Shown: positions 2,711-25,715, counted from the stretch's first letter. The stretch: 32,523 nt of DNA from Candidatus Pacearchaeota archaeon (GCA_018304205.1 JAGVWR010000005.1:1-32523), one strand, 5' to 3'. Notes: generated by a model from the sequence alone, not told the origin. Translations and numbers: made by a program.

Positions 2711-3145
2711 TCAATCTCTTAATTGATATGCACCCTCTTTCTCATAGACAACAGATCCTCTAAAAATTCCCTGATCTTTATTAAACATTTTATGAATAAC
2801 ATTTATCACATCACCTAACTCATTAGCTGCATCGTCGTTACTAGCTCCCATATAAGTAGCTACTAGCACATATTTCATACTTGCAAGAGGTCTTCTTTCT
2901 TTTTCATATCCTTGTTTAATTCTTTCGTTTGACATTACTCTATAATCATCTGGATATTGAATTTGTTCAGCAAGAGTTTTATCAAGTTGTAGCCCAGAAA
3001 TCCCCTCATTCAATAACAACTGCAAACCTTTGGGAGTTTTTGCCTCGTTTCTTATATGACTCCCAGATTTTTCTAGTTCTTGTTTTGAGGCATCACAATC
3101 AAAAAATGCGTATGCCCTTCCATAGGTTTCTGCTTCTTTTTCCAT
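2711..3145 (-). CDS. hypothetical protein
   Basis: 144-aa ORF with non-repetitive composition. No motif recognised. Confidence 0.5.
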   Translation of the reverse strand: MEKEAETYGRAYAFFDCDASKQELEKSGSHIRNEAKTPKGLQLLLNEGISGLQLDKTLAEQIQYPDDYRVMSNERIKQGYEKERRPLASMKYVLVATYMGASNDDAANELGDVINVIHKMFNKDQGIFRGSVVYEKEGAYQLRD

Positions 3146-3301
3146 ATTTATTACAAGTAGAACTACTATTTAAACCTTTTTATTTGTAACCACTATAAAG
3201 TAACATATTCTGCTTAACAGAGTTTCAGTAAGTATAAATCTCCTCGATAACTAATTCTTTAGAACATTCAATAATTCATTATAAGGTTATTTTTTATTAG
3301 T

Positions 3302-5290: not shown

Positions 5291-5393
5291 GGCCCTGTAG
5301 TCTAGTGGCAAAACGACTCGTTTACAAGTATGGCGATGAAAGTCAAAAATACTAAAAGCCGAGTAGTCAGGAGTTCGATTCTCTTCAGGGCCA
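5291..5393 (+). tRNA. tRNA-Val (anticodon UAC) with a 32-nt intron at position 37/38
   Basis: Acceptor GGCCCTG/CAGGGCC. Anticodon stem ACTCG (5316-5320) pairs with CGAGT (5360-5364). Loop is TTTACA, then intron 5327-5358 with internal helix AGTAT/ATACT. T arm AGGAG-TTCGATT-CTCTT; discriminator A. The D stem has one mismatch. Confidence 0.85.
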
Positions 5394-6392: not shown

Positions 6393-6480
6393 GCGATCAT
6401 AGTTAAGTGGTATAACGTCTCGTTGCCAAAATAAAAATTGCAAAAACGAGGAGTTTCGGGTCCGATTCCCGATGGTCGCA
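6393..6480 (+). tRNA. tRNA-Gly (anticodon GCC) with a short (~17 nt) intron at 37/38
   Basis: Acceptor GCGATCA/TGGTCGC (one G-U pair). D arm GTTA-AGTGGTA-TAAC. Anticodon stem TCTCG/CGAGG with loop TTGCCA, then intron 6429-6445. T arm TCGGG-TCCGATT-CCCGA; discriminator A. Confidence 0.75.
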
Positions 6481-7189: not shown

Positions 7190-8077
7190 TTAATAATCAG
7201 GAGAAGGACTTTGCTTTGCATTAACATTTGCAGAAGCTAAAGCAGGATTCGGCAAAAAACTAGAAGGGACATATCTGCCTTTAGAGCTTCTCATAGCTTC
7301 TATATACGGAGAGACAGGTATTGCTGCAGTTCTTTGAGAGTTATCTGGAAAACCATAATGTCTCTCTCCAGAAACAAAATTCACTGCTGTTGAAACTATC
7401 ATGGAAGCAGCAACAGCAACAACAGAAGCAAGTTTTACTATCCTGCCTCTGGTTCTCAATCTATCTCTATTTGTTCGTCTTTCTTTTGGATCAATTGTTA
7501 TTCCACTATAAACTAATCTAGGCTTAAATGCAGGAGCAGTTAATCTCGAAGACCCATATTCTCCAACTTGCAAAGGTCCTTGCAATTCATAATCTTCTGC
7601 AGTCATAGCACCTTCCAATTTTCCAACATCCTGACCGAGCATTTTTGGAATCTCCGCATATTTATTTTCGCTAGTAATAGCATCTAAGAATTTTGATGTT
7701 GAGACAAACCTTCCGCTTTCATCTCTTGGAATCAACTTCGTTTCTCTAAGCTCAAAACCATCATATTGCTCAACAATCTTGTCAAGAGCTTTAGAAATTG
7801 TGCTTCTATGTCTGTTAAACTGTCTAGCAATCTCGCTTTTGGACATTCCTGCCTGATAAAGACCATATACTTCAAGTGAGTCAGATTCATCCATTCTAAG
7901 ACCTTTTTTATCCAAATTACTTAATCTTCGGTATATTTCTTCAATTTCCATAGGCTTAAGATTATTTTTTGAATTTCTTTTTAAATTCAGTTTTCTTCTG
8001 GCTATAAGTCTAGGTTCTATTAAAGTTAAGGATCCAGGTCCCAGATCATTTGCCATTTTGTTCATAAAATCCTTCAA
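7190..8077 (-). CDS. HTH-domain protein with a C-terminal transmembrane anchor
   Basis: HTH 'AGMSKSEIARQFNRHRSTISKALDKI'. Single hydrophobic helix 'IVKLASVVAVAASMIVSTAVNFV' followed by a ~60-aa tail. Confidence 0.6.
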   Translation of the reverse strand: MKDFMNKMANDLGPGSLTLIEPRLIARRKLNLKRNSKNNLKPMEIEEIYRRLSNLDKKGLRMDESDSLEVYGLYQAGMSKSEIARQFNRHRSTISKALDKIVEQYDGFELRETKLIPRDESGRFVSTSKFLDAITSENKYAEIPKMLGQDVGKLEGAMTAEDYELQGPLQVGEYGSSRLTAPAFKPRLVYSGITIDPKERRTNRDRLRTRGRIVKLASVVAVAASMIVSTAVNFVSGERHYGFPDNSQRTAAIPVSPYIEAMRSSKGRYVPSSFLPNPALASANVNAKQSPSPDY

Positions 8078-8186
8078 AAATCTACTTATTTAAATCTTTC
8101 CAAAGTTACTATTATAAAGTTACTATCAAATATTATTTTCCGGATAATTATATTTAAATAATCTAGGTTTAGACTCTTTTTTAAAT

Positions 8187-9513: not shown

Positions 9514-10380
9514 TTACAAATGGAATTTCGACATTAAGATTGGAAGTATGTGATAGTTAAACACCTTTATTAATGGCATGGATTTTGGAAAGATTTCGTA
9601 ATCCTTTTTTTTCAGTTTTTCTTCTAAATATTTTATAGAAAAATCTTCTAATAGATTATGGTTGCATAAAATATAAGAAATATCGGTATCTTGGTAATGA
9701 TGAGCATCTGAAACTGATATCCCTTTAACTCCATCAAGAACACTCTCTTCGTATCTTTGATTGTTTAATTCACCAGCTGATAGAGCATTAAACTCTTCAA
9801 AAAATACTTTTTCTTCTTTTACAAGCTTTATTGTTTTTTCAAGGGGTAAACTGTCAACAACATCTGAAGGATGGCAAACAATTGAGAAGCCGCCATTACT
9901 TGAAACATCAGATATTGTTTTTTCTGTATCTTGAGAATGAGGAACTAAATCTTCTAAACCTATTACGTTAATGTCCGCTGTTTCTCCATCATAAAGAGTT
10001 CTTACTTCTTGAGTATGTAATATTATTATAGAAGACAATTGCATTTTTTCAATGTCTTTTCTTATCTTTCTGTTTCTTTCGAATCTTGCCCATCCTTCTT
10101 TTTTATTATAGTTTATATTGAAATCATTGGTTAAATATTGCGCTTGAGACATGTAAGAAAAGAAACGGTCATCCATTCCACTTGTTGGAGTGTGACATGA
10201 GGAAAGAGCACAGATCCCAATTGCATTTTCAAAGGCGTTTTCTACAATATCTCTTAAAGAAGGAATTGGAAACAATTTTTTGTAAAGTCTTCCTGATTTA
10301 TCGCTAGGTCTATAAAAGTGAGGATGTGCGTGAAGAACAACTTTAAGTGCGTAGTTCTCATCATGTGCTGTCTTTCCCAT
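9514..10380 (-). CDS. PHP-family-like metal-dependent phosphoesterase
   Basis: His-rich motifs in PHP-like order: 'VVLHAHPHF', 'FSIVCHPSD', 'GISVSDAHHY'. The assignment is motif-based only. Confidence 0.5.
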   Translation of the reverse strand: MGKTAHDENYALKVVLHAHPHFYRPSDKSGRLYKKLFPIPSLRDIVENAFENAIGICALSSCHTPTSGMDDRFFSYMSQAQYLTNDFNINYNKKEGWARFERNRKIRKDIEKMQLSSIIILHTQEVRTLYDGETADINVIGLEDLVPHSQDTEKTISDVSSNGGFSIVCHPSDVVDSLPLEKTIKLVKEEKVFFEEFNALSAGELNNQRYEESVLDGVKGISVSDAHHYQDTDISYILCNHNLLEDFSIKYLEEKLKKKDYEIFPKSMPLIKVFNYHILPILMSKFHL

Positions 10381-10431
10381 AAAAATTGAGTTATTAGTAG
10401 ATATATAAATTTATTGTCTTTGTTTTTTAAT

Positions 10432-10983
10432 TTATGCATTACCTATTAAGTTCCTAAGAAAAAAGCCTACAACGAACGCAATAATTGCTGCAGCTCCGCC
10501 AATTAAAATAATCTCAAATACTGATTTAAATATATTTCTTTCAGTTACTCTTGCTTTTGCAATTCCGATTATAATAAAGGCAAGCGCGGTTAGCGCGATT
10601 GAATAAGAAAACTGATTTGCTCTTAAGGAAGGGATGAATACTGCCAATACAAAAGAGATTAAAGGAATAAATCCGATTATTACGAAGGAAAAGAAGGTGG
10701 CTATTGCAGTTTTCCTTGGGTTTTTTATATGTTCATGCCTATGTTTATGTTTTGCCATTAAATCATTTTCAGATTTTATAGCTAAGTAATTTGAAATAGC
10801 CATTGAAAAAGCATCTGCAAAAAGATTTGCGAAGCCAAGTATTAAGACTATGACTGAACTTAAAGAAGCGCCCATGACTCCCGCAACAACTGCAAAAGTA
10901 GTTACTGTTCCATCAATGGCGCCGTAAACAAACTCTTCTAAATACTTCTTTTCAAAACTCCTCTTTATTATCATAGGTATCAT
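10432..10983 (-). CDS. VIT1/CCC1-family iron/manganese transporter
   Basis: 'EEFVYGAIDGTVTTFAVVAGVMGA' signature plus multiple TM segments. Confidence 0.85.
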   Translation of the reverse strand: MIPMIIKRSFEKKYLEEFVYGAIDGTVTTFAVVAGVMGASLSSVIVLILGFANLFADAFSMAISNYLAIKSENDLMAKHKHRHEHIKNPRKTAIATFFSFVIIGFIPLISFVLAVFIPSLRANQFSYSIALTALAFIIIGIAKARVTERNIFKSVFEIILIGGAAAIIAFVVGFFLRNLIGNA

Positions 10984-11027
10984 TAGAAAATTATATATTT
11001 AAAATATCCCTATGACTTAGGAAAAAG

Positions 11028-11040
11028 AAAGATTTTTATA
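11028..11040 (+). promoter_or_regulatory. BRE/TATA-like box
   Basis: aaagatttttata is centred about 25 nt upstream of ATG 11062. Confidence 0.45.
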
Positions 11041-11061
11041 CAGAGTTTAAGGGGTTTTTCT

Positions 11062-11307
11062 ATGACATTTGTAAAAGATGATAATACTTTAGTATATACT
11101 GGGCCTTTTAGAAGTTGCTGGGATTATCTATTGAGAAATAAGTATACTCAGGAATTTCCTAGTACGGATCTCCCTATTTTTATACGTGGAAACGAAATAG
11201 TAGAAAGAGTGGAAATTATGGAAAATTTAGAACCGGATATGGAAAAAAGATATAAGATAGTGAGAAAAGAGGCAACCAGGAAAGATAGGTCTGGAATACA
11301 AAGATAA
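11062..11307 (+). CDS. hypothetical small protein
   Basis: 81-aa ORF with its own consensus promoter. Confidence 0.45.
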   Translation: MTFVKDDNTLVYTGPFRSCWDYLLRNKYTQEFPSTDLPIFIRGNEIVERVEIMENLEPDMEKRYKIVRKEATRKDRSGIQR

Positions 11308-11342
11308 GATAGTTTTAAAAACTTAAAAAAATACTTCTATAA

Positions 11343-13157
11343 ATGAGCGACAAGAAACCAACACTTGCAGATGGACTTAATTCTCCTGTAAAATATGATT
11401 CTAACAAAGTCCCGGTAATACCCAGTGTACCTGGAAATGAAAAGCAAAAAAGTCCAGAAGAAATGGCTAAGGAATTTGAAAAACTTAAAGCTAAATTAGA
11501 AGATTTGAAAAAAAAGATAGTAAACAAACATAAATTTGTTAGATTTTTGAGCATATTGCCTCAACAAATGTTACCTTTATATGCTGAAGACGAAGCAATG
11601 CCTAAAGAAGTTGAAGATACAAAACCTTTACTTTTGTTTATGTGTATTCCAGAGGATAATTATAAGGATCTTCCAAAAATAAAGCCAGAAATAATAGAAA
11701 TGATTAAAGAAACCAAACAAAATATTTGGCTTATCGTAAAAACAGAAGTAGATATATGGAGTTATGGATTAGATAGTAAATTTGAGTTGATAGATGGAAT
11801 TTCTAATTCATTTCCATTGCATGATGGCGGATTTTTAGGATCATTAAGAGTTGCGAATATACATAAAGCATTAGTTTTGAGAAAGTTTGAGAAATATATT
11901 ACTTCTTATGTAATTGGGGGAAGTCTTGTAAGAGGTGTGGCCGGAAAAGATAGTGATGTTGACACATTTATAATTATTGATGATACTGATGTTAAAAGAA
12001 TGCCTAGACTTGAGTTGAAAGAAAAGTTAAGAGGAATGATTTATGATTATATAAGAGAAGCAAGTGCTTTAGCTGGAGTTCAAAACATATTAAATGTACA
12101 AGTTTATTTGCTTACAGAATTTTGGGAATCTGTAAAAGATGCACAGCCAGTTATGTTTACTTTTATAAGAGATGGAGTTCCATTATATGACCGAGGAACT
12201 TTCATTCCTTGGAAATTACTTCTTAAGATGGGAAGAATTAAACCTAGTCCAGAAGCAATTGATCTGTTTATGAAATCTGGCGATCAGACTGTTGAACTTG
12301 TTAAAAGAAGATTAATGGACGCAATGGTTGATATTTACTGGGGAATCTTAACCCCTACTCAAGCATTGTTGATGCTTGCGGGTCATGCTCCTCCAGAACC
12401 TAAAATAGTTGTTTCAGAGGTTAAGAAAGTTTTGGTTGATCGTGAAAAATTAATGACTATGAAGGAACTAAAAATCTTAGAGAGGTCAGTTAAGTTGTAC
12501 AAAGATTATGAACATGGAAAATTAACTGAGATTTCTGGAACAGAAATAGATCAATTAAGAAAAGATTCCAACGAATATACTAAGAGAATGAAGGTATTAA
12601 AAGATGAGCTGGAATTAAGGATGAGAGAACATACAGTAGACAAGATTCATGATGAAGTATTTACGGTTTTGAAAAATATATTTGGAACTAAGTCTAGTGA
12701 TCTACTTGTTAAAGACTTAGAAGAACAGTTAGTGAAGAAAGGAAAAATACAGAAGAGAATGCTTAATATAGCTAGAGAAATCGCTGATATAAAGAAGAAA
12801 TCGAAGAATAAGAAACTTACACATACTGAACAACAGAAAATAAGTGGAGAAGGATCTGAACTACTTAATGCTCTAACTGAATATGCTCAAAGAAAGGATT
12901 TAGTTGCTCTGGAAAAGGGAATTATTCAAATAACTTCTAAAGATAGAAAAGCAGAACTTGTAACTACCGATTCTGGAATATTTGTAGTTGAAAAGAGAGG
13001 TATAAGAAAGATCTCTGGGAAGAGAATAGATAACAGTGATGCTAAAGCTTTTGAAGACGCACTAAAGAATACGAAAGAAAGACTCAAGGGAAAACTAAGT
13101 CAGGAAACACTTGATGTATTAAAGAAAGAATTTGGCGAATTTAGCGTTGAGTTTTAG
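11343..13157 (+). CDS. large Pol-beta-superfamily nucleotidyltransferase: degenerate NTase-like module, intact NTase, helical (KNTase_C/HEPN-like) domain, charged C-terminal region
   Basis: 'IGGSLVRGVAGKDSDVDTFIIIDD' (GS...DxD). 'DAQPVMFTFIRDGVPLYDRGTF' and 'IYWGILTPTQALLMLAGHAPPEP' are paralogous to ORF 25723-26571. TATA ttttaaaa lies 26 nt upstream of the ATG. Confidence 0.75.
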   Translation: MSDKKPTLADGLNSPVKYDSNKVPVIPSVPGNEKQKSPEEMAKEFEKLKAKLEDLKKKIVNKHKFVRFLSILPQQMLPLYAEDEAMPKEVEDTKPLLLFMCIPEDNYKDLPKIKPEIIEMIKETKQNIWLIVKTEVDIWSYGLDSKFELIDGISNSFPLHDGGFLGSLRVANIHKALVLRKFEKYITSYVIGGSLVRGVAGKDSDVDTFIIIDDTDVKRMPRLELKEKLRGMIYDYIREASALAGVQNILNVQVYLLTEFWESVKDAQPVMFTFIRDGVPLYDRGTFIPWKLLLKMGRIKPSPEAIDLFMKSGDQTVELVKRRLMDAMVDIYWGILTPTQALLMLAGHAPPEPKIVVSEVKKVLVDREKLMTMKELKILERSVKLYKDYEHGKLTEISGTEIDQLRKDSNEYTKRMKVLKDELELRMREHTVDKIHDEVFTVLKNIFGTKSSDLLVKDLEEQLVKKGKIQKRMLNIAREIADIKKKSKNKKLTHTEQQKISGEGSELLNALTEYAQRKDLVALEKGIIQITSKDRKAELVTTDSGIFVVEKRGIRKISGKRIDNSDAKAFEDALKNTKERLKGKLSQETLDVLKKEFGEFSVEF

Positions 13158-13203
13158 TTAGATTTAGTCTAAATGTTACCATTATGGAAAGACATTAATA
13201 GGG

Positions 13204-13217
13204 AAAGATTTATATAT
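13204..13217 (+). promoter_or_regulatory. BRE/TATA-like box for the 13238 gene cluster
   Basis: aaagatttatatat is centred about 26 nt upstream of ATG 13238 (leaderless geometry). Confidence 0.5.
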
Positions 13218-13237: not shown

Positions 13238-14080
13238 ATGGATTGGAATGAAAAGTTTAGAAGCTGGGTTAAAGAAAACCCGGATGATTTTAAGAAGCTA
13301 AAAAGCCAAATTACTCAAAGGTCACTTGACTGGTATTTGTATAAGACTAAAGGAGTTTCTCATATAAATTTAGGTGCTAGAGTTAAATTATATAAAGCCA
13401 CAAAAATAGAAGAATTTCGTCCCGATAATTATATTGATCCTGAAACATTTGGTGTTGAAGATATTATAAAAAGAAAAGTTCCTTCAACAGCAATAGAAAT
13501 ATGGTTGGGATATAATGATATTGCAAAAACAGATTTTGCTAAAAGAACTGGAATTCATAGAGATAGTTTAACTAGTTATATAAATGGGGCGAAGGTAAAA
13601 GATTTCACATTAGTAAAGATTATTTCAGGCCTTAGAAAATACGCTAGTGAAGGCCCAAGTAGAAGAGGATTAGAGGCCGAAGAAGTTGATAAAGTTTTGA
13701 GAACTGCTGGCGAGGGTATTGGTAGGGGCAATGACGGAAGAGATATTGTTGATTTAATTGAAAGGGGTTTTGATGATTTGAAACAATACCTTGATAAATT
13801 AAATGATAAATCGAAAGTTAAACCTTCAAAAGATGGTGCTGCGCTTTCAGATAAATTAAAACAATTAGATGTAGCTATAGATTCTTTAGTAGACGCTATG
13901 GAGTATTATAAGGGGCAGGGAAGAGATGTTAGAATGAAATTAGCAAGTTACTTAGCTAGAACTAATCAATTGCATAGATTTGGATGGGCTTGGAACGTTT
14001 ATGGGGGATTGTCAAGAAGAGAGGACGATCCAGACTCATTTGCAAGAAGCACTAAACCCCCGGAGAAAAATAAAGCTTAA
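13238..14080 (+). CDS. double helix-turn-helix (XRE-like) protein; first gene of the GHKL cluster
   Basis: Two HTH-like segments: 'ITQRSLDWYLYKTKGVSHINLGARVKLY' and 'IAKTDFAKRTGIHRDSLTSYINGAKVKDFTLVKIISGL'. Helical C-terminal half. Confidence 0.6.
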   Translation: MDWNEKFRSWVKENPDDFKKLKSQITQRSLDWYLYKTKGVSHINLGARVKLYKATKIEEFRPDNYIDPETFGVEDIIKRKVPSTAIEIWLGYNDIAKTDFAKRTGIHRDSLTSYINGAKVKDFTLVKIISGLRKYASEGPSRRGLEAEEVDKVLRTAGEGIGRGNDGRDIVDLIERGFDDLKQYLDKLNDKSKVKPSKDGAALSDKLKQLDVAIDSLVDAMEYYKGQGRDVRMKLASYLARTNQLHRFGWAWNVYGGLSRREDDPDSFARSTKPPEKNKA

Positions 14081-14081
14081 A

Positions 14082-15626
14082 ATGAAATGGAAAGAACCAA
14101 AAATGCCTGGAGAAGGTCAAAGTAGACTAATATTAGAATTATCTAGACAATACGATGGACCATACCCCTCTACTAGAGAATATGGTACGAACGGTCTTGA
14201 TGCTATTGAAGAAGATAGAAGAAACGGATTAATAGATGATTCTACAAATATGATGAAGTTTTTAGCTGAGCAATCTACAAAGAGAGTTATTATTCAAGAT
14301 TTTGCTGCTGGAATTAGTTCTGGTAGAATGCAAGAGTTACCTGAAAGTATAGGCAAATCAATAAAATCTGGAAAGTTTGATCAAAGAGGAGAGAAAGCAG
14401 TCGGTTTACTTGCATTTGGATCTATGGGAACTTCAGTAGATATAATTTCTAAGATGGTTTCTGAAAAGACGTTTAATCATTTGAGATATGAAATTATTGG
14501 AAAAGCAAAAGATGGAGATGAGAGAGTAGTGTATAAAATTGATACTCTTTCAAGAGAGGATATGGACAAATTATATTGCGGTAAATTTGATCATGGTACA
14601 AAGATTTTGATCAATACAAATGCCCACGTTATAAAGAGAATGGCTTTCGGAAGACTTAGAAATTTTGTTCAATCGTATTATGCTCCAATATTAAAAAGAA
14701 ATGCTTCAAGTATAACATTTATTGTTGGTGATATTGATAAAGGTTTAGAAGAAAAGGTAACTTTTCCAGAAATTAAAGGAAATATTTTAGCTGATGGAGC
14801 TATACAAATTGATTCTGAGATTGCTGGTGATAGAAGGGCAAAGGTTGATTTTCATCTTGTTTTTGATCATGATAGTGAGAGGGGGGGTGTTCCGGTATTT
14901 AGTAAGGGTGTAAAGATATATGATAATGTGCTTGAGCTTGACGAGTCTTTGGGCGATACTGCTCTTTGGACATGTCCACATATTCAAGGTTATGTAAACG
15001 AAGAGACTCTTAAGGTAACTCTTGGAAGAAACGGAATAAATAGAGAGAGTATGGGTTATAAATCGCTTGTTCAATTATTGAGAATTGTTGATGGTAAACT
15101 TAGAGGCAAAATTTCTCAGAATATGCTGGAAAAAGATGAAAGAAGAGATACTGGAATAATTAAGGAAGGTTGGAAATTAATGGAGAAAGTTTATCAGACA
15201 ACAGTTCCACTTGACAAAGATGATAGGGTAGCTTCAACGAGATCAGAATCTGGAACGCAAAGTCCTGATAAAGAACTAAAGAAGAAGAAACCAAGAGTAT
15301 TTCCTTTTCAGGAACCGGTTAGAACTTCTTTTTCTGAGATAGAGAAACATTTACGTGCAAAGTTAACTCCTATGGGTACTCAGTATTTTATTTACGTAAA
15401 TGTAAGTCACCCAGATTATAAGTTTGCATTTGGAAATGGAAAGAGAGATAGGGGACTAGATTATTTGTTTGAAGTTTCTGCTCCGATAATTGCTCAGGCA
15501 GAAATGAAAAACTCTATTGAAAAAAAGAGAAAAATGTACGGTAGTGTATATCAAATTGCTGGAGAGATATCAAATAGAGCCCAAGATATTATATTTCAAT
15601 ATAGGAAACTTAGGTTTGGTAAATAA
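14082..15626 (+). CDS. GHKL (Bergerat-fold) ATPase, MutL/Top6B/MORC-like
   Basis: N box 'REYGTNGLDAIEE', G1 'VIIQDFAAGISSG', G2 'FDQRGEKAVGLLAFGSMGTS', G3 'HGTKILIN', in canonical order and spacing. Start chosen at ATG 14082, 1 nt after the upstream stop. Confidence 0.65.
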   Translation: MKWKEPKMPGEGQSRLILELSRQYDGPYPSTREYGTNGLDAIEEDRRNGLIDDSTNMMKFLAEQSTKRVIIQDFAAGISSGRMQELPESIGKSIKSGKFDQRGEKAVGLLAFGSMGTSVDIISKMVSEKTFNHLRYEIIGKAKDGDERVVYKIDTLSREDMDKLYCGKFDHGTKILINTNAHVIKRMAFGRLRNFVQSYYAPILKRNASSITFIVGDIDKGLEEKVTFPEIKGNILADGAIQIDSEIAGDRRAKVDFHLVFDHDSERGGVPVFSKGVKIYDNVLELDESLGDTALWTCPHIQGYVNEETLKVTLGRNGINRESMGYKSLVQLLRIVDGKLRGKISQNMLEKDERRDTGIIKEGWKLMEKVYQTTVPLDKDDRVASTRSESGTQSPDKELKKKKPRVFPFQEPVRTSFSEIEKHLRAKLTPMGTQYFIYVNVSHPDYKFAFGNGKRDRGLDYLFEVSAPIIAQAEMKNSIEKKRKMYGSVYQIAGEISNRAQDIIFQYRKLRFGK

Positions 15627-15655
15627 TAGTGTAACTTCATAGTTGTTACAAATAC

Positions 15656-15668
15656 AAAGATTTAAATA
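15656..15668 (+). promoter_or_regulatory. internal BRE/TATA-like box within the GHKL cluster
   Basis: aaagatttaaata is centred about 26 nt upstream of ATG 15690. Confidence 0.5.
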
Positions 15669-15689
15669 TCTCTTTTTTTTGAAGATTTT

Positions 15690-16574
15690 ATGGGCGGGAA
15701 AAGAATTAATTGGACAGAAGAAGCAGCTAGACTTTTATGGGTTAGAAATTTACAAAAAGTTAATTCAAAAGTTATATCTGAAGAATTGTTGAATATACAT
15801 GGTTTAAATATCAAACCTCAATATGTTATTGCTTTCGCTTGTAGATTAAGAACACAAGAAGAGGCAAGGTTTTCTAGTATAATCACAGAAATTCCAAATG
15901 CGGAAAGTATTCCTGCAAATTATAAACTTGCTCCAGTAATTGAACTTGCTGAACAGGTTGACATGTCGGGAGTTATTAAAAGTTCTAGATCTACTTTGGA
16001 TTCTTTAATGGGTCAATATAACGCAAAAGTTAATGATGTATTAAGAGATTGGGAAGATGCTATTTACAAAGAAATGACTAAACAGGCTGATAGAGTTAAA
16101 AATTTTGACTTAAATACTCTTTACGGTCATACTCCTCTAACCGAATTAGCGCGTTTACCTGAGGCAGACAAGGCTAAAATTATTGATCTTTTAAGGAGAG
16201 GGGTGAATGGAGATGCAATAAAAAATATAGAAATATTAATTGCAGACAAAGATCTTTCTAAACAGAATATAGGAGTAATTTTACCATTATATTTTGAAGA
16301 TGATAAAGCATCTGACAAAAGTCTTAGAAGTGCACTAAACGATATAGTTGTTGCAACTCTTGTATCAGAACCTTCATTTAGAAGAGCTAAACAATTTAAA
16401 GGAAGGTTTGGGGATTTAGTTATGTACGATTTCAATTTAACTAGTGCCCCTAATTATAAATTAATTGAGCAAAATATAGTTAAAGGATTGTCTAGTGAAT
16501 ATAGTGGAGTTGGAGTTAATTTTCTACTTGACTATTTTCCATTGGGATTAGTTGGGAAATCTAAGAGGGGTTAA
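15690..16574 (+). CDS. hypothetical protein (orphan; possible N-terminal HTH)
   Basis: 294-aa ORF. 'INWTEEAARLLWVRNLQKVNSKVISEELL' is weakly Myb/HTH-like. No catalytic motif recognised. Confidence 0.55.
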   Translation: MGGKRINWTEEAARLLWVRNLQKVNSKVISEELLNIHGLNIKPQYVIAFACRLRTQEEARFSSIITEIPNAESIPANYKLAPVIELAEQVDMSGVIKSSRSTLDSLMGQYNAKVNDVLRDWEDAIYKEMTKQADRVKNFDLNTLYGHTPLTELARLPEADKAKIIDLLRRGVNGDAIKNIEILIADKDLSKQNIGVILPLYFEDDKASDKSLRSALNDIVVATLVSEPSFRRAKQFKGRFGDLVMYDFNLTSAPNYKLIEQNIVKGLSSEYSGVGVNFLLDYFPLGLVGKSKRG

Positions 16575-16575
16575 G

Positions 16576-18588
16576 ATGAACTTAAGTAGATTGTCAAGAG
16601 ACGAATTAAAATCTCTTAAGGCCGATCCTGTAAAACTAAGAAGTTATTGTGTTGGGAGAAAAGTTTCTCTTATTGATGTTTTAGATCAAATAGATGCTTT
16701 AATTTCTGATAATGTAAACAATAAAAGTAAGGATGACAAATTAAATATTTCTAGATTAAAAAGAAGAATCTCTGTTTGCGCTCCTAGAAACATATATAGA
16801 GTAATTAGAAAGGTCAATGCAGAATATAGGGAGAAACGGTTTAGTTATGGTAGTATAACTTTAGAAGATTTTGCAAAAAGAGTTGATTTTGATTTAGAAA
16901 AAAATGATTTAAAGGTTGGTGTTGAGACTACTTTTTCGGGGTTTGTAGCTAACAGACTTTATGACACAATAGTTTTAAAGAAGTATCATCCAAAAGATAA
17001 GAAAAGAAGAAAAAGAATAAAGAAAAAAGTTCCAGAACATTTAAGAAAAATAAAAGATGAAGATTTTTCTAAATTTTTATGGATTACATTTGACTCTGTT
17101 TCAATGGAATTAGTAAGAGGAAAATTACCTGAAAATTATGTTGCTGATAATTATAGAATGATTAATGAGGAAATTGTTTTACTAAAGGGTAATGAAATGG
17201 TTAAGCATCCTTCTATAGAAGGAACAAGAAATTGGGTTGATCCTAGCAAGGATGAGACTAGAAAAATGATAACTAATTATATAGATAGCTATCTTCTCAA
17301 TAATCTTAGAGGAAAAGCAGAGGTAGTTGAGACAACACTTACTACAATTATAAGTGAAAGAGGAAAAATTGAAGAAAGAATTAATAAATTAAATGAGGAA
17401 ATAAGAGATATGTCTGAAAAAAAGAGGTATTTAATCTTTTCACTTGAAGGCCCAAATTATCGGGTAAATCAATTTGTTAAAAATATCCTTGGTGGTAGAT
17501 CAAAGTCTGCAAACTTAAGTGGAAGAAAAGTTATAGAGGATACAATAGCTACTGCTGAAGGTTTTAAAAGAAAAGTTGATGTTACTTTCGATTTAAGAAT
17601 CGTAAGTCTTCCTGGTTTTGATACATTTGTTAAAGGATATAAAGAATTTATTAATTCTCTTCCTGAAAATGAAAGAGGATCATTAAATTCTAATTTAGAT
17701 ACAATTCTAAGAAATGGTATACTTTCTGAGAATTTGATCGCAAGCAAAGACAATGAAATTTCTTTATGCCAGAGAGAACTAGATAAATTAACTTTAAAGG
17801 AAAGTGAAATTTCACAAATGAGAAACTCCCCTAAAAATTTGAATTATTTGGGTCTGGAAGGTCCGAATTTTTCAAGTTTTCTTAAAATCTATGGCCTTCT
17901 CTCTAAATATGGGCTTGGTTTAAAGGGAGTTATTCCTGAAAATAGCGAAAGATTGTATAATTTGATGAATAGTTTAGCAAGACACGATAATTTTAGAGAA
18001 TATTTTAGAGATGTCAAAATTGCTAGAGCAGACTTAGATGAACTTATTCTTCTTGATTTTGTTAATAGTCCTTTAGTTAGATTAGAAAGAGAACCCACTA
18101 AGGATGAAGATTTGAAATTAGGAGTTAGATACAAAGAAGATTTAATAGGTTTAGATCAATATTATTTGGCTTTAGATAGTTTGGAAACAGAAGGTGTAGA
18201 AAAGACTTCAAAAAAATTTGGAATATCTCCAGAATTTGCCTCTATAATTTCAGATAGGTATAAAGATAAATTTGATATTGTATTTTTGGATTATGTTGGA
18301 AGAATGACTTCTAAAAGACAATTAGCTTTAGAAGTTCTTGTAAGAAGAAGGTTAAATAGTAATGCAATTATAGCAACTACTACAAATGCTTCTGCAAGAG
18401 TTAATCCAAGAGGAGAATCTGGGGGGATGGAGCAAATAAATAATAATATTCTGGAAATTTCTTTTGATGCATTCATTAATAATGGTTATACTCCTATTGA
18501 AAGAGAGGGCTTAGAATACAATAAAAGTAAGAGCGCAAGTGATGGAATGATTTTCCAAGTATATTATATAAAGAAAGATCAGGTTTAG
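16576..18588 (+). CDS. large orphan protein with a duplicated 'LEGPN[YF]' module; C-terminal module shows Rossmann/methyltransferase-like motif order
   Basis: 'FSLEGPNYRVNQF' (17443-) and 'LGLEGPNFSSF' (17854-). The second is followed by 'GVIPENSERLYNLM', 'VKIARADLDEL' and 'KFDIVFLDYVGRM' (18271-). Basic patch 'KDKKRRKRIKKK'. Start taken at ATG 16576, 1 nt after the upstream stop. Confidence 0.6.
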   Translation: MNLSRLSRDELKSLKADPVKLRSYCVGRKVSLIDVLDQIDALISDNVNNKSKDDKLNISRLKRRISVCAPRNIYRVIRKVNAEYREKRFSYGSITLEDFAKRVDFDLEKNDLKVGVETTFSGFVANRLYDTIVLKKYHPKDKKRRKRIKKKVPEHLRKIKDEDFSKFLWITFDSVSMELVRGKLPENYVADNYRMINEEIVLLKGNEMVKHPSIEGTRNWVDPSKDETRKMITNYIDSYLLNNLRGKAEVVETTLTTIISERGKIEERINKLNEEIRDMSEKKRYLIFSLEGPNYRVNQFVKNILGGRSKSANLSGRKVIEDTIATAEGFKRKVDVTFDLRIVSLPGFDTFVKGYKEFINSLPENERGSLNSNLDTILRNGILSENLIASKDNEISLCQRELDKLTLKESEISQMRNSPKNLNYLGLEGPNFSSFLKIYGLLSKYGLGLKGVIPENSERLYNLMNSLARHDNFREYFRDVKIARADLDELILLDFVNSPLVRLEREPTKDEDLKLGVRYKEDLIGLDQYYLALDSLETEGVEKTSKKFGISPEFASIISDRYKDKFDIVFLDYVGRMTSKRQLALEVLVRRRLNSNAIIATTTNASARVNPRGESGGMEQINNNILEISFDAFINNGYTPIEREGLEYNKSKSASDGMIFQVYYIKKDQV

Positions 18589-18989
18589 GCGTTGTAGCTT
18601 CCTCTTGTCCAATTTGCTAAATATGCCGAGACAGTTTCGACAGGAACTTTCTTTAAAGCTAAACGAACATCTAGGTGTGTTGCTCCTTTGTTTTTAAGAG
18701 ATACAACCTTATCTCTTATAGGATCTTTTTCTCGATATTCTCCTTTATTTGAAACGGTTCTGAGAATTTCTACTAGCATAGATGTTTGCCTAGAATCAAG
18801 CAGCTTTATCGTTTCTTTCGGAATGTGAATTTTGCCATTTCCATTCGTATAAGTGTAAACTTTTCTAACCAAGGCGGCCTTATATCCAGCTAATTGTTCT
18901 TGGCTTATTCTTTCTTGTTTTCTTATAACCGGATCAGAGTAACCTTCTCTTATTTTGCTATAAATTCTGTTTTGTTTTGTTTTTGTCAT
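18585..18989 (-). CDS. hypothetical small protein, convergent on the GHKL cluster (4-nt overlap)
   Basis: 134-aa ORF. TATA-like tttataaa (19011-19019, minus strand) lies about 22 nt upstream of its ATG. Possible C-terminal HTH 'GATHLDVRLALKKVPVETVSAYLANWTRG'. Confidence 0.5.
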   Translation of the reverse strand: MTKTKQNRIYSKIREGYSDPVIRKQERISQEQLAGYKAALVRKVYTYTNGNGKIHIPKETIKLLDSRQTSMLVEILRTVSNKGEYREKDPIRDKVVSLKNKGATHLDVRLALKKVPVETVSAYLANWTRGSYNA

Positions 18990-24755: not shown

Positions 24756-24810
24756 GGTTTTTGAGTATTGTTATGTTTGTTTTTGTTACTACTATTTAGT
24801 TACTTAAATA

Positions 24811-24824: not shown

Positions 24825-24845
24825 CCCTAATTGTATAGGAAAATC

Positions 24846-25715
24846 ATGACAAAAGCAAGATCAAATGTATACGAAGAGGTAATGAATCACCTCAAATTAT
24901 CTAGATTTATTCAGAAAAGTAAATCAGAAAGAGATAATCCTAGTAATCCTAACGATGTTATAAAATCTGCTGAAAAAGGGTTAAGAGACGCATTTTATGG
25001 TCAACTTGTTGCTTCTGGTTCAATAGATCCAAAGGTATTAAAAAGAGCAGATTTGAATGATCCAACCAATCCAAATTATGAAAATGGAAATAAGTTAATT
25101 GAAGGAAAGGCAGATCTTGAGTTAAGACATTCTGAAACAGCTGCATCTACAAAATTTAAGTCTAATTTAGATGATTTTGTTGGCAGTGTTCCTGAAGGAG
25201 ACTTAGAAAAAATGCTTGCTAATGATAAATCTGCGGGAATATTAGCTGGAGTTGCTGATGATAAAGAAACATTTGGGCTATATAAGGCTCATGAATCATT
25301 AAAGAAATTTGCTGAGGATTACAGAGCTAAGGGCGATGAAGCTATTGATTCTAAAGAAACTGCTCAAAAAATAATGGATTATAAGATAAAGGGAGCAAGA
25401 GCAGCTGAAATGAAATCAGTAAAGGAAAAGGGTTATAATGAGAGAGATCAAGCAAGTGCTGGAGAATTGGCTGAATTCGCAGCTAAAATAGGATTTACTG
25501 GAGAAAAAGGAAAAGAGTACGCCTTAACTGGAATAGAATCTGAAGTTAAAGAAATTGAAGAAAGACTTAAGGCAAAGGGAGACTTCAGGAAAGCACTTAG
25601 AGGAGCATACGAAAATCTCGCTAATAGAAATCTAGTAGTTGCCAGGGATCTTGCTTATGGGGCGCATGTAGATAAGATTGATGAAGAAGTTAGCAAATAT
25701 GTAAGAGAAAGATAA
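24846..25715 (+). CDS. hypothetical helical protein
   Basis: ORF with charged, helical composition. Start moved from TTG 24831 to ATG 24846 on promoter geometry. Confidence 0.55.
   Translation: MTKARSNVYEEVMNHLKLSRFIQKSKSERDNPSNPNDVIKSAEKGLRDAFYGQLVASGSIDPKVLKRADLNDPTNPNYENGNKLIEGKADLELRHSETAASTKFKSNLDDFVGSVPEGDLEKMLANDKSAGILAGVADDKETFGLYKAHESLKKFAEDYRAKGDEAIDSKETAQKIMDYKIKGARAAEMKSVKEKGYNERDQASAGELAEFAAKIGFTGEKGKEYALTGIESEVKEIEERLKAKGDFRKALRGAYENLANRNLVVARDLAYGAHVDKIDEEVSKYVRER

What the first reader, a model, noticed from the sequence alone, without database searches (positions are those of the whole stretch)
13238..18989. Orphan gene cluster built around a MutL/Top6B/MORC-like GHKL ATPase: candidate uncharacterised DNA-directed or defence-type system
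Seen in sequence: four co-directional genes are packed with 1-nt stop-to-start spacing at 14080/14082 and 16574/16576. A single 63-nt gap carries a second consensus BRE/TATA box (15656-15668). A fifth small gene converges on the cluster with a 4-nt overlap. The products are a 280-aa protein with two XRE-like HTH segments, a 514-aa ATPase, a 294-aa orphan, and a 670-aa internally duplicated protein. The ATPase has all four Bergerat-fold boxes in order: REYGTNGLDAIEE, IIQDFAAGI, QRGEKAVGLLAFGSMG and HGTKILI. The RE...N.LDA.EE and RGE boxes look closest to the MutL/Top6B style. Established knowledge: prokaryotic MutL/MORC-type GHKL ATPases have been described in restriction-modification-like conflict systems (Iyer, Abhiman and Aravind 2008). 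Topo VI B is the canonical archaeal GHKL protein, but it is normally partnered with a Toprim/CAP A subunit, which I cannot see here. Inference: this partner set (HTH, GHKL, orphan, Rossmann-like giant protein) does not match any system I recognise. It also sits in a window rich in TA modules. It is the best candidate here for a novel system, for example defence, chromatin or DNA manipulation, or a cryptic mobile-element replication/partition module.
Basis: partly seen in the sequence, partly recalled or inferred. Interest (0 to 1): 0.8.

Follow-up and report, generated by a model that had tools for sequence, protein, structure and literature searches.

The report
Hsp90-like ATPase and methyltransferase-like gene cluster
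A small group of tiny groundwater archaea (DPANN) carries a conserved, fast-evolving set of five uncharacterised genes, pairing an Hsp90-like ATPase and its DNA-binding partner with a methyltransferase-like protein and two more DNA-binding partners; it matches no described system and its function is still unknown.

Summary

Three details need correcting:
- The 514-aa ATPase (B) is Hsp90-like by sequence and by predicted fold, not MutL/Top6B/MORC-like. It is also not an ordinary HtpG orthologue.
- The 670-aa protein (D) is not internally duplicated. Its C-terminal third has a class I SAM-methyltransferase fold with an unusual conserved YLGLEGPNF / FLDYxG signature.
- The cluster is two units. 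A-B is an XRE-type HTH protein plus the ATPase. C-D is followed by a convergent small gene, E.

A-B is adjacent in all 20 loci that retain sequence upstream of B. C-D-E is conserved in seven lineages. All five genes sit together in five lineages, in two permuted orders and in different flanks, down to 23% ATPase identity, so the linkage is old and probably functional. Elsewhere A-B sits beside other D-type methyltransferase-like genes, a type II R-M system or an integrase.

No PADLOC, PHROGs, NCBIfam, phage or plasmid match exists, and no nuclease or helicase is detectable.

Best guess (about 0.35): a DNA-directed accessory system in which an HTH-targeted methyltransferase-like module works with an HTH-recruited, ATP-driven Hsp90-type clamp. 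The function is inferred, not shown.

The parts
13157..13179 (.). Imperfect palindrome GTTAGATTTAG-t-CTAAATGTTAC, about 25 nt upstream of the A promoter. It is a possible operator.
   Evidence: 11-nt arms, 82% complementary. Not tested for conservation or significance.
13204..13216 (+). BRE/TATA-like promoter box AAAGATTTATATA for the A-B operon. It ends 22 nt before the ATG.
13238..14080 (+). Gene A, 280 aa. It has XRE-type HTH segment(s) and a conserved C-terminal helical domain (AIDxLVxQMDYF...RWGYVxNILGGI...TFAR). It is the obligate upstream partner of B.
   Evidence: An A homologue sits directly upstream of B in all 20 loci that retain upstream sequence.
14082..15626 (+). Gene B, 514 aa. 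[quoted passage not shown]
   Evidence: Pfam HATPase_c_3 scores 22 bits, below the cut-off of 25. Family profile against PDB gives Hsp90 N-domains, E 6e-5. AF2 pLDDT is 79. Foldseek top 50 are all Hsp90/TRAP1/HtpG, E 4e-16 to 3e-13. Invariant ATP-binding residues plus R316.
15631..15649 (+). GTAAC-N9-GTTAC element 6 nt upstream of the C promoter. It is one of four exact copies of a composite promoter element in the window.
   Evidence: 13 matches with at most 1 mismatch against 1.16 expected.
15656..15668 (+). BRE/TATA-like promoter box AAAGATTTAAATA for the C-D operon.
15690..16574 (+). Gene C, 294 aa. It has an N-terminal Myb/SANT-like W-x2-EE-x2-L-x-W segment, a variable middle and a conserved C-terminal domain of about 190 aa with unknown fold.
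   Evidence: The L043 homologue hits Myb_DNA-bind_5 at E 0.001. C lies immediately upstream of D in all 7 lineages.
16576..18588 (+). Gene D, 670 aa. It has a poorly modelled N-terminal region with an invariant IEGTxxW motif, two long helices flanking a small beta domain, and a C-terminal class I methyltransferase-fold domain (about aa 418-670, nt 17827-18585). Conserved motifs are NYLGLEGPNF, PE, NLMxS and KFDxVFLDYxG.
18585..18989 (-). Gene E, 134 aa. It is a small protein with two HTH-like segments, read by eye only. It converges on D with a 4-nt overlap.
   Evidence: The convergent position, with a 4-nt overlap or a gap under 10 nt, is kept in all 7 lineages.

Best explanation
This is a lineage-restricted accessory system of Pacearchaeota/Woesearchaeota-type DPANN archaea, built from two physically linked modules.

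Module 1 (A-B):
- A is a DNA-binding adaptor with XRE-type HTH(s) and a conserved C-terminal domain.
- A is translationally coupled to B, an Hsp90-type GHKL ATPase.
- B keeps every ATP-binding residue and an Hsp90-like catalytic-loop arginine. It is therefore inferred to be an active, dimerising ATP-driven clamp that A recruits to DNA.

Module 2 (C-D, with convergent E):
- D carries a class I SAM-methyltransferase-fold domain with a strongly conserved cofactor-site signature.
- C (Myb/SANT-like HTH) and E (small, HTH-like) are its targeting or regulatory partners.

Proposed working, which is inference and not shown:
- Module 2 marks nucleic acid, most probably DNA, because at least two of the five proteins (A and C), and possibly E, carry HTH-type segments.
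- Module 1 then reads, remodels or occludes that DNA using ATP. This resembles the way MORC/paraMORC GHKL ATPases accompany methylases in restriction-modification-like conflict systems.
- No nuclease or helicase is detectable. The output is therefore more likely silencing, occlusion or controlled expression than cleavage.

Shown: gene structure, folds, conserved residues, two promoters and conserved linkage.
Inferred: complex formation, DNA as the substrate, methyl transfer, and any defence role.
For: Linkage:
- A-B adjacency holds in 20 of 20 loci with upstream sequence, with junctions of -4 to +1 nt at most of them.
- C-D with convergent E is conserved in 7 lineages.
- All five genes occur together in 5 lineages, in two orders. 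A-B-C-D-E is seen in the window, L023 and L043. C-D-E-A-B is seen in L024 and L044.
- L043 and L044 have different flanks, and their B shares only 23% identity with the window's B.
- Other A-B loci sit next to distant D-type methyltransferase domains. These are the L001 414-aa protein (E 1e-58) and the 'fam10' proteins in L036, L037 and L038 (hhalign probability 75%, E 2.4e-5).
- A further homologous 302-aa class I MTase abuts the cluster in L023 and L043.

Folds and residues:
- B is Hsp90-like. E33, N37, D40, D73, G77, G103, G108, S114, G172, T173 and R316 are invariant.
- The top 50 PDB matches for D are all methyltransferases.
- The broader D family carries HTH domains and gives weak Methyltransf_35 hits.

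Accessory character:
- A-E share 26-47% identity between syntenic genomes, against 55-79% for the flanking genes.
- The families are rare. B has 7 clusters in the word-indexed search. D has 45 clusters at E <= 1e-30 among 1.84 billion representatives.
- Neighbours include a type II R-M pair (L014), a HEPN plus NTP_transf_2 pair (L043) and an integrase (L017).
Against: - There is no biochemical or genetic evidence of any kind.
- No nuclease, helicase or other effector is recognisable.
- PADLOC finds nothing for B-E and only a non-significant AbiEi hit (E 0.019) for A.
- About half of the A-B loci have no D-type gene within the sequence held. C-D-E occurs without A-B within 10 kb in L025 and L042, so the two modules can work apart.
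- D's motif I (LEGPNF) departs from the canonical GxGxG, so it could bind SAM without transferring methyl, or bind another ligand.
- D's closest structural matches are RNA methyltransferases (fibrillarin, BCDIN3D, RsmD-like), so RNA is a live alternative substrate.
- In three genomes the cluster occupies one chromosomal slot among conserved housekeeping genes, so part of the synteny reflects shared ancestry.
- The structure models rest on shallow alignments of 4 and 7 sequences. The N-terminal third of D is not modelled.
Confidence: 0.35

Rival explanations
1. A-B is a portable regulatory switch. A would be an XRE-type repressor whose DNA binding is controlled by the sensor ATPase B. The switch would govern whichever cargo lies next to it, and C-D-E would be only one such cargo. 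This is comparable in logic to CapK/CapS, CapW or BrxR-type controllers of adjacent immune operons.
For: - A-B is the invariant core, while its neighbours vary: C-D-E, fam3, fam10, the L001 trio, and a type II R-M pair in L014.
- A has XRE-type HTHs.
- Palindromes lie upstream of both promoters.
- A GHKL kinase plus DNA-binding repressor pair is known to control adjacent immune operons (PMC13373217, read).
Against: - B has an Hsp90-type N plus middle architecture, not the small anti-sigma-kinase type, and no STAS domain is present.
- In L024 and L044, A-B lies downstream of C-D-E rather than at its promoter.
- The GTAAC-N9-GTTAC element before C also precedes unrelated genes, so it is not a cluster-specific operator.
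- Several A-B loci have no obvious cargo.
Confidence: 0.25
2. The genes are the maintenance, regulation or anti-host module of an integrated or degraded mobile element (plasmid or virus) of DPANN archaea, not a cellular system.
For: - A Phage_integrase-family gene (30.9 bits, above the cut-off) lies 0.7 kb upstream of fam3-A-B in L017.
- The L001 partner protein has excisionase-like HTH_17 and PHROG excisionase hits.
- The distribution is patchy and the genes diverge fast.
- Structural relatives of B in viruses include giant-virus Hsp90s and many phage RIIA proteins.
Against: - No direct repeats flank the cluster and it shows no GC deviation.
- No replication, capsid or conjugation genes lie nearby.
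- The IMG/VR scan found no relative of D, and only remote N-domain matches for B.
- There are no tblastn hits in 50,697 phage or 72,556 plasmid records.
- Three genomes carry the cluster in the same chromosomal slot.
Confidence: 0.15
3. These are housekeeping functions that merely sit together. B would be a minimal Hsp90-type protein chaperone for these reduced archaea, regulated by A. D would be an RNA or protein methyltransferase (fibrillarin-like) acting in ribosome or RNA biogenesis.
For: - The top fold matches are Hsp90 for B and fibrillarin/Nop1 for D.
- In the window, L023 and L024 the cluster lies beside the ribosomal protein genes L35Ae and L10e.
Against: - The family is very rare and lineage-restricted.
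- It evolves about twice as fast as the adjacent housekeeping genes.
- There is no match to Pfam HSP90 or to the NCBIfam HtpG models.
- B is strictly coupled to an HTH protein, and HTH domains recur through the partners.
- Nearness to r-protein genes is not unusual in genomes of about 1 Mb.
Confidence: 0.1

Closest known systems
Hsp90 / HtpG / TRAP1 family of GHKL ATPases
   Same: - The N-terminal signature resembles that of Hsp90: family consensus QYxNPLHALREYxTNAIDA against Hsp90 YSNKEIFLRELISNASDAL.
- The best 60 PDB sequence matches and the top 50 PDB fold matches are all Hsp90-family, with N and middle domains aligned over about 400 residues.
- An invariant LTLGR[DE]GIN arginine resembles the Hsp90 catalytic-loop motif NLSRE. 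The Hsp90 motif is recalled from memory, and the equivalence was not checked by superposition.
   Different: - There is no match to Pfam HSP90 (PF00183) or to the NCBIfam HtpG models.
- B is 514 aa, against more than 600 aa for typical Hsp90 proteins.
- Its C-terminal region differs: a long helix, a basic disordered linker and a small alpha/beta domain.
- It is always encoded with an overlapping HTH-protein gene.
- It is restricted to a few DPANN lineages.
MORC / paraMORC GHKL ATPases of restriction-modification-like systems (Iyer, Abhiman and Aravind 2008, PMC2292703)
   Same: - Both involve a GHKL ATPase with a transducer-like second domain.
- Both are encoded in conserved neighbourhoods with methyltransferase-type genes and HTH proteins.
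- Both show a patchy, accessory distribution.
   Different: - The defining partners, superfamily II helicases and restriction-fold, Vsr or HNH endonucleases, are absent.
- B groups with Hsp90, not with MORC or MutL.
- The methyltransferase-like partner belongs to an uncharacterised family, not to Dam or Dcm.
- PADLOC models give no hit to B.
Class I SAM-dependent methyltransferases (fibrillarin, BCDIN3D, RsmD-like; Pfam Methyltransf_35)
   Same: - D residues about 418-670 are predicted to adopt the Rossmann-like methyltransferase fold, and the top 50 PDB matches are all methyltransferases.
- An acidic residue ends strand 2 (E455), and a D-containing motif IV is conserved.
- Weak Methyltransf_35 hits appear in D homologues.
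   Different: - No Pfam family reaches its cut-off.
- Motif I is YLGLEGPNF rather than GxGxG.
- Window-type D proteins carry an insertion of about 80 aa between motifs III and IV.
- The domain is fused to about 400 aa of unknown N-terminal sequence with coiled coils.
- Substrate and activity are unknown.
Phage RIIA proteins
   Same: RIIA proteins are among the best viral fold matches to B (E 1e-11 to 1e-8). Viral contigs encode proteins of about 700-800 aa whose N-domains match the B profile.
   Different: - Only the N-terminal ATPase part matches at the sequence level, with 25-33% identity over about 100 aa.
- RIIA proteins are longer and are paired with RIIB, not with an HTH protein.
- No A, C, D or E relatives are present on those contigs.
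CapK/CapS-type controllers of adjacent immune operons (PMC13373217)
   Same: It is a two-gene module of a GHKL-superfamily enzyme and a DNA-binding protein, found next to variable accessory operons.
   Different: - CapK is an anti-sigma-factor-type kinase with STAS domains, and CapS is a STAS-wHTH protein.
- No STAS domain is detected here, and B is Hsp90-type.

Membership tests
Hsp90/HtpG | Bergerat-fold N-domain carrying the Hsp90-type motif I signature | tested here: met
   The family profile matches Hsp82/Hsp90/HtpG N-domains (best E 6e-5), and the best 60 PDB matches are all Hsp90-family. E33, N37 and D40 are invariant.
Hsp90/HtpG | Hsp90-type middle domain following the N-domain | tested here: met
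   The Foldseek top 50 PDB matches are all Hsp90/TRAP1/HtpG, E 4e-16 to 3e-13, with 350-690 aligned columns and TM about 0.45. The model is of moderate quality (pLDDT 79, built from 7 sequences).
Hsp90/HtpG | Sequence match to the curated family models (Pfam HSP90 PF00183, NCBIfam HtpG) | tested here: not met
   Neither model hits, even at E <= 1. B should therefore not be filed as an Hsp90 orthologue.
Hsp90/HtpG | Chaperone activity and C-terminal dimerisation domain | not testable with these tools
   The C-terminal 100 aa are modelled as strands plus helices, but no coordinates were available for comparison.
MORC / paraMORC R-M-like systems | Conserved neighbourhood with an SF-II helicase and/or a restriction-fold, Vsr or HNH endonuclease | tested here: not met
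   No helicase or nuclease family is detected in A-E or in their conserved partners. The one adjacent R-M pair (L014) is a single case.
MORC / paraMORC R-M-like systems | GHKL domain closest to the MORC/MutL clade | tested here: not met
   The best sequence and fold matches are Hsp90-family. Pfam HATPase_c_3 scores 22 bits for the window protein, below the cut-off of 25, though it passes in homologues.
MutL | DNA_mis_repair transducer domain and MutL C-terminal dimerisation/endonuclease domain | tested here: not met
   No Pfam or NCBIfam MutL-family hit at E <= 1.
Topoisomerase VI subunit B | Partner A subunit (Toprim/CAP) and Top6B transducer domain | tested here: not met
   No Top6A-like gene lies in the cluster or in any of the more than 20 related loci. 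There is no Top6B family hit.
Class I SAM-dependent methyltransferase (protein D) | Rossmann-like seven-strand methyltransferase fold | tested here: met
   The Foldseek top 50 PDB hits are all methyltransferases. The best is fibrillarin 1g8a at E 8e-5, with target TM about 0.5. pLDDT over this part is mostly 70-95.
Class I SAM-dependent methyltransferase (protein D) | Canonical SAM-binding motif I (GxGxG) and a curated family match | tested here: inconclusive
   Motif I is YLGLEGPNF. Only sub-threshold Methyltransf_35 hits are found (E 0.004 to 7e-5 in relatives). The acidic residue E455 and the LDYxG motif are conserved.
Class I SAM-dependent methyltransferase (protein D) | SAM binding and methyl transfer | not testable with these tools
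   This needs biochemistry.
Known anti-phage defence systems (PADLOC-DB v2) | HMM match of any component | tested here: not met
   B, C, D and E give no hits. A gives only AbiEi at E 0.019.
XRE/Cro-C1 HTH proteins (protein A) | Match to the HTH_3, HTH_31 or HTH_26 models | tested here: inconclusive
   The window protein scores 17.6 bits against a cut-off of 23. Each of the three models matches 4 of 11 family members, best E 4e-5.

The most novel reading that the evidence does not exclude
The five genes form a previously undescribed kind of ATP-dependent, methylation-linked DNA-surveillance or silencing system in DPANN archaea. An Hsp90-type clamp, brought to DNA by its own HTH adaptor, would act together with a new family of HTH-guided methyltransferase-like proteins and without a classical nuclease. 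This would be a prokaryotic use of the Hsp90 branch of GHKL ATPases on nucleic acid rather than on protein clients.
Probability: 0.25. Interest if true: 0.85.

Novelty: categorically new. Interest (0 to 1): 0.62.

Why it matters
- Archaea largely lack Hsp90, and the Hsp90 branch of GHKL ATPases is known as a protein chaperone (from general knowledge, not tested here). Here a member of that branch is locked to an HTH partner and repeatedly linked to methyltransferase-like genes, which would point to a DNA- or RNA-directed use of the fold.
- The D-type methyltransferase-like family has no described member. It comprises 110 clusters at 50% identity, often fused to HTH domains.
- DPANN archaea are episymbionts with tiny genomes. 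A conserved, fast-evolving five-gene accessory block in such genomes is likely to matter for conflict with viruses, mobile elements or hosts.
- The comparative data give concrete experiments: ATPase-dead and motif-IV mutants, A-B and C-D-E co-expression, and methylome readout.

Tried and rejected
- **MutL/Top6B/MORC assignment of B:** rejected. PDB sequence and fold searches give Hsp90 only at the top.
- **Ordinary HtpG orthologue:** rejected. No PF00183 or NCBIfam HtpG hit.
- **Internal duplication of D:** rejected.
- **Known defence system:** PADLOC gives nothing. PHROGs gives nothing for A-E. NCBIfam gives nothing.
- **Phage or plasmid origin:** tblastn of B and D against the phage and plasmid collections finds nothing. 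The IMG/VR scan with D finds nothing, and with B finds only remote RIIA-like N-domains.
- **Mobile-element boundaries:** no flanking direct repeats, no tandem repeats and no GC shift.
- **Remote homology between partners:** I tested C, D N-terminus and E against each other's neighbours, and against the upstream partner 'fam3' seen in other loci. hhalign was not significant (E 0.03-0.6). The only hint is the E C-terminus against the fam10 C-terminus (E 0.002-0.05).
- **Cluster-specific operator:** the GTAAC-N9-GTTAC element before C also precedes unrelated genes, so it was rejected as specific.
- **Word-indexed homologue searches:** they under-reported family sizes (7 and 4 hits). The exhaustive representative search showed 110 D relatives.
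- **Literature:** searches found no description of this pair or cluster.
- **Failed runs:** one Pfam call failed on size, and one script timed out.

Full report
**1. What is in the sequence.**

The window is a low-GC (about 32%) archaeal contig. It carries two intron-containing tRNAs that Rfam finds and ARAGORN misses. Identical copies come from Rifle-aquifer and other groundwater metagenomes.

| Gene | Coordinates | Strand | Length |
|---|---|---|---|
| A | 13238-14080 | + | 280 aa |
| B | 14082-15626 | + | 514 aa |
| C | 15690-16574 | + | 294 aa |
| D | 16576-18588 | + | 670 aa |
| E | 18585-18989 | - | 134 aa |

- The A/B and C/D junctions leave 1 nt between stop and start.
- The B/C gap is 63 nt.
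- D and E overlap by 4 nt.

AAAGATTTATATA (13204-13216) and AAAGATTTAAATA (15656-15668) each end 22 nt before an ATG. This 13-mer is the window's general promoter consensus, with 8 matches against 1.8 expected. The block therefore has two forward transcription units, A-B and C-D, plus a convergent E.

**2. The ATPase (B).**

- Pfam gives only a sub-threshold HATPase_c_3 hit for the window protein (22 bits, cut-off 25). All six homologues found first carry it.
- A profile of the family matches Hsp82/Hsp90/HtpG N-domains (best E 6e-5), and the best 60 PDB matches are all Hsp90-family.
- The AlphaFold2 model has pLDDT 79 and pTM 0.68. Its top 50 PDB fold matches are exclusively Hsp90, TRAP1, Hsc82 and HtpG, at E 4e-16 to 3e-13, spanning the N and middle domains.
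- In the viral structure library the best matches are giant-virus Hsp90s, followed by many phage RIIA proteins.
- Across 16 homologues sharing 20-37% identity with B, the ATP-binding residues E33, N37, D40, D73, G77, G103, G108, S114, G172 and T173 are invariant. So is R316, within LTLGR[DE]GIN. From memory this resembles the Hsp90 catalytic loop NLSRE. I did not verify the equivalence by superposition.
- There is no hit to Pfam HSP90, to MutL or Top6B families, or to the NCBIfam HtpG models.

B is therefore an Hsp90-like GHKL ATPase. It is neither MutL/Top6B/MORC-like nor an ordinary HtpG.

**3. The partners.**

*Protein A.*
- It is a weak XRE-type HTH protein. The window copy scores below threshold. 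HTH_31, HTH_3 and HTH_26 each match 4 of 11 family members, best E 4e-5.
- Its C-terminal 80 residues are well conserved.

*Protein D.*
- It has no sequence match in PDB and no family above threshold.
- Its model has pLDDT 67.5, and residues 46-222 are unreliable. It shows two long helices around a small beta domain, then a Rossmann-type domain.
- The top 50 PDB fold matches to that domain are all class I methyltransferases, including fibrillarin, Nop1, BCDIN3D and RsmD-like proteins (best E 8e-5).
- Conserved motifs are NYLGLEGPNF, PE, NLMxS and KFDxVFLDYxG.
- The claimed internal duplication is not supported.
- An exhaustive profile search finds 110 representative relatives, 45 of them at E <= 1e-30.
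- Many relatives carry only the methyltransferase-like domain, preceded by HTH domains (HTH_23, HTH_17, HTH_7, Cbp1-like). A few give weak Methyltransf_35 hits.

*Proteins C and E.*
- C starts with a Myb/SANT-like W-x2-EE-x2-L-x-W segment. Its L043 homologue hits Myb_DNA-bind_5 at E 0.001. C ends in a conserved domain of unknown fold.
- E is a small protein with two HTH-like stretches. This reading is by eye only.

**4. Comparative genomics.**

I collected loci by contig look-ups and by genome, metagenome and viral scans. I then classified the genes with family HMMs, BLAST and hhalign.

| Pattern | Where seen | Detail |
|---|---|---|
| A directly upstream of B | all 20 loci with upstream sequence | junctions of -4 to +1 nt at most loci |
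| C-D with convergent E | 7 lineages | D/E overlap of 4 nt or a gap under 10 nt in every case |
| A-B-C-D-E | window, L023, L043 | full set, first order |
| C-D-E-A-B | L024, L044 | full set, second order |
| C-D-E without A-B within 10 kb | L025/L026, L042 | modules can occur apart |
| A-B beside other D-type methyltransferase-like genes | L001, L036, L037, L038 | L001 414-aa protein, E 1e-58; 'fam10', hhalign E 2.4e-5 |
| A-B preceded by a third recurrent gene ('fam3') | 6 loci | function unknown |
| Homologous 302-aa class I MTase abutting the cluster | L023, L043 | 26% identity, E 3e-27 |

- L043 and L044 have flanks unlike the window's. Their B proteins are only 23% identical to the window's.
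- The linkage therefore predates deep divergence and is not explained by inherited synteny alone.
- Other neighbours of A-B include a type II R-M pair (N6_N4_Mtase plus RE_MamI, L014), a HEPN plus NTP_transf_2 pair (L043) and a Phage_integrase gene (L017).
- Named sources are Pacearchaeota and Woesearchaeota MAGs.
- Between the three genomes that share the window's chromosomal slot, A-E are 26-47% identical. The flanking VIT1, NTP_transf_2, L35Ae, L10e and PPDK genes are 55-79% identical.

**5. What it is not.**

- PADLOC, PHROGs and NCBIfam give nothing significant for A-E.
- tblastn of B and D against 50,697 phage and 72,556 plasmid records finds nothing.
- IMG/VR holds no relative of D, and only remote RIIA-like N-domain relatives of B.
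- No helicase or nuclease domain is detectable in any conserved partner.
- No att-like repeats, tandem repeats or GC shift mark the cluster.
- Literature searches found no description of this pair or cluster. The MORC/paraMORC paper defines its systems by helicase and endonuclease partners that are missing here (PMC2292703).

**6. Interpretation.**

Shown:
- Two tightly coupled gene pairs and a convergent small gene.
- An Hsp90-type ATPase with an intact active site.
- A methyltransferase-fold protein with a conserved cofactor-site signature.
- HTH-type segments in A and C and, by eye only, in E.
- Old but non-obligate linkage of the two modules.
- Rarity, fast evolution and accessory-type neighbourhoods.

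Inferred:
- A recruits a B dimer to DNA.
- C and E target or regulate D.
- D methylates DNA, with RNA as the alternative.
- The two modules cooperate in a modification-linked, ATP-dependent action on nucleic acid that ends in silencing or occlusion rather than cleavage.

I put this reading at about 0.35. The rivals are:
- A-B as a portable regulator of variable cargo (0.25).
- A mobile-element module (0.15).
- Co-located housekeeping chaperone and RNA-methylation functions (0.10).

**7. Verdict.**

No described system shares this composition, and each close family fails at least one defining test. I therefore rate it categorically new as a gene system, while stressing that its function is unproven. 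Interest is 0.62. It is a well-delimited, conserved and testable orphan system with an unexpected Hsp90-type core, but it has no functional data and is known only from uncultured organisms.

Noticed in passing
window 3186-3204, 8105-8123, 15631-15649, 24785-24803: A composite promoter element, GTWAC-N9-GTTAC, sits about 6 nt upstream of the BRE/TATA consensus AAAGATTTAWATA at four genes: the 144-aa gene 2711-3145(-), the 291-aa HTH_38-like gene 7190-8077(-), gene C, and the 289-aa gene 24831-25715. There are 13 matches with at most 1 mismatch against 1.16 expected. Similar elements precede both cluster genes and unrelated genes in related loci. It looks like the site of a shared transcription factor, that is, a small regulon.
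   Followed up: partly
window 11343-13157 (+): A 604-aa protein with an NTP_transf_2 (Pol-beta-type nucleotidyltransferase) domain sits next to the cluster in the window, L023 and L024, at 57-59% identity. It is convergent just downstream of A-B in L027. It may be a conserved neighbour or a further partner, and its function is unknown.
   Followed up: partly
window about 17644-17694 (gene D); L003 11227-13290: A population variant of D on a JGI Rifle contig is 687 aa instead of 670 aa. It carries an in-frame tandem duplication of 17 residues (SLPENERGSLNSNLDTI) in the helical region before the methyltransferase-like domain.
   Followed up: partly
L016 3336-4433, L017 1919-3022, L028 150-1052, L030 3-1085, L037 7258-8649, L038 7309-8655: A third recurrent gene ('fam3', 300-460 aa) lies directly upstream of A-B in six loci that lack C-D-E. 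It contains repeated W/I-T-x-x-E-A-x-x-L-W HTH-like segments. No family match and no significant relation to C were found.
   Followed up: partly
L036 4520-5707; L037 5651-7153(-); L038 5701-7203(-); L001 2991-4235(-): Distant D-type methyltransferase-like proteins lie beside A-B in loci without C-D-E. The C-terminal 40 residues of the L036-L038 proteins weakly resemble the C-terminus of E (hhalign E 0.002-0.05, not significant).
   Followed up: partly
L023 8876-9784(-); L043 3991-4899(+): A homologous 302-aa canonical class I methyltransferase (Methyltransf_31; 26% identity, E 3e-27) abuts the five-gene cluster in two lineages, on opposite sides. It is absent from the window.
   Followed up: partly
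window 5291-5393 and 6393-6480: Two tRNA genes of 103 and 88 nt are found by Rfam (about 52 bits each) but missed by ARAGORN. This is consistent with archaeal intron-containing tRNAs.
   Followed up: no
L013 1345-2502 and 2503-2892: In one metagenome contig the B homologue is split into two adjacent ORFs (385 aa plus the C-terminal part). This could be a frameshift, a pseudogene or an assembly error.
   Followed up: no
L018-L022 (IMG/VR contigs), about 9850-12300 in each: Viral contigs encode 700-820-aa HATPase_c_3 proteins whose first 100 or so residues match the B profile. Judging by the fold matches of B, they are probably RIIA-like proteins.
   Followed up: partly
   Followed up: no
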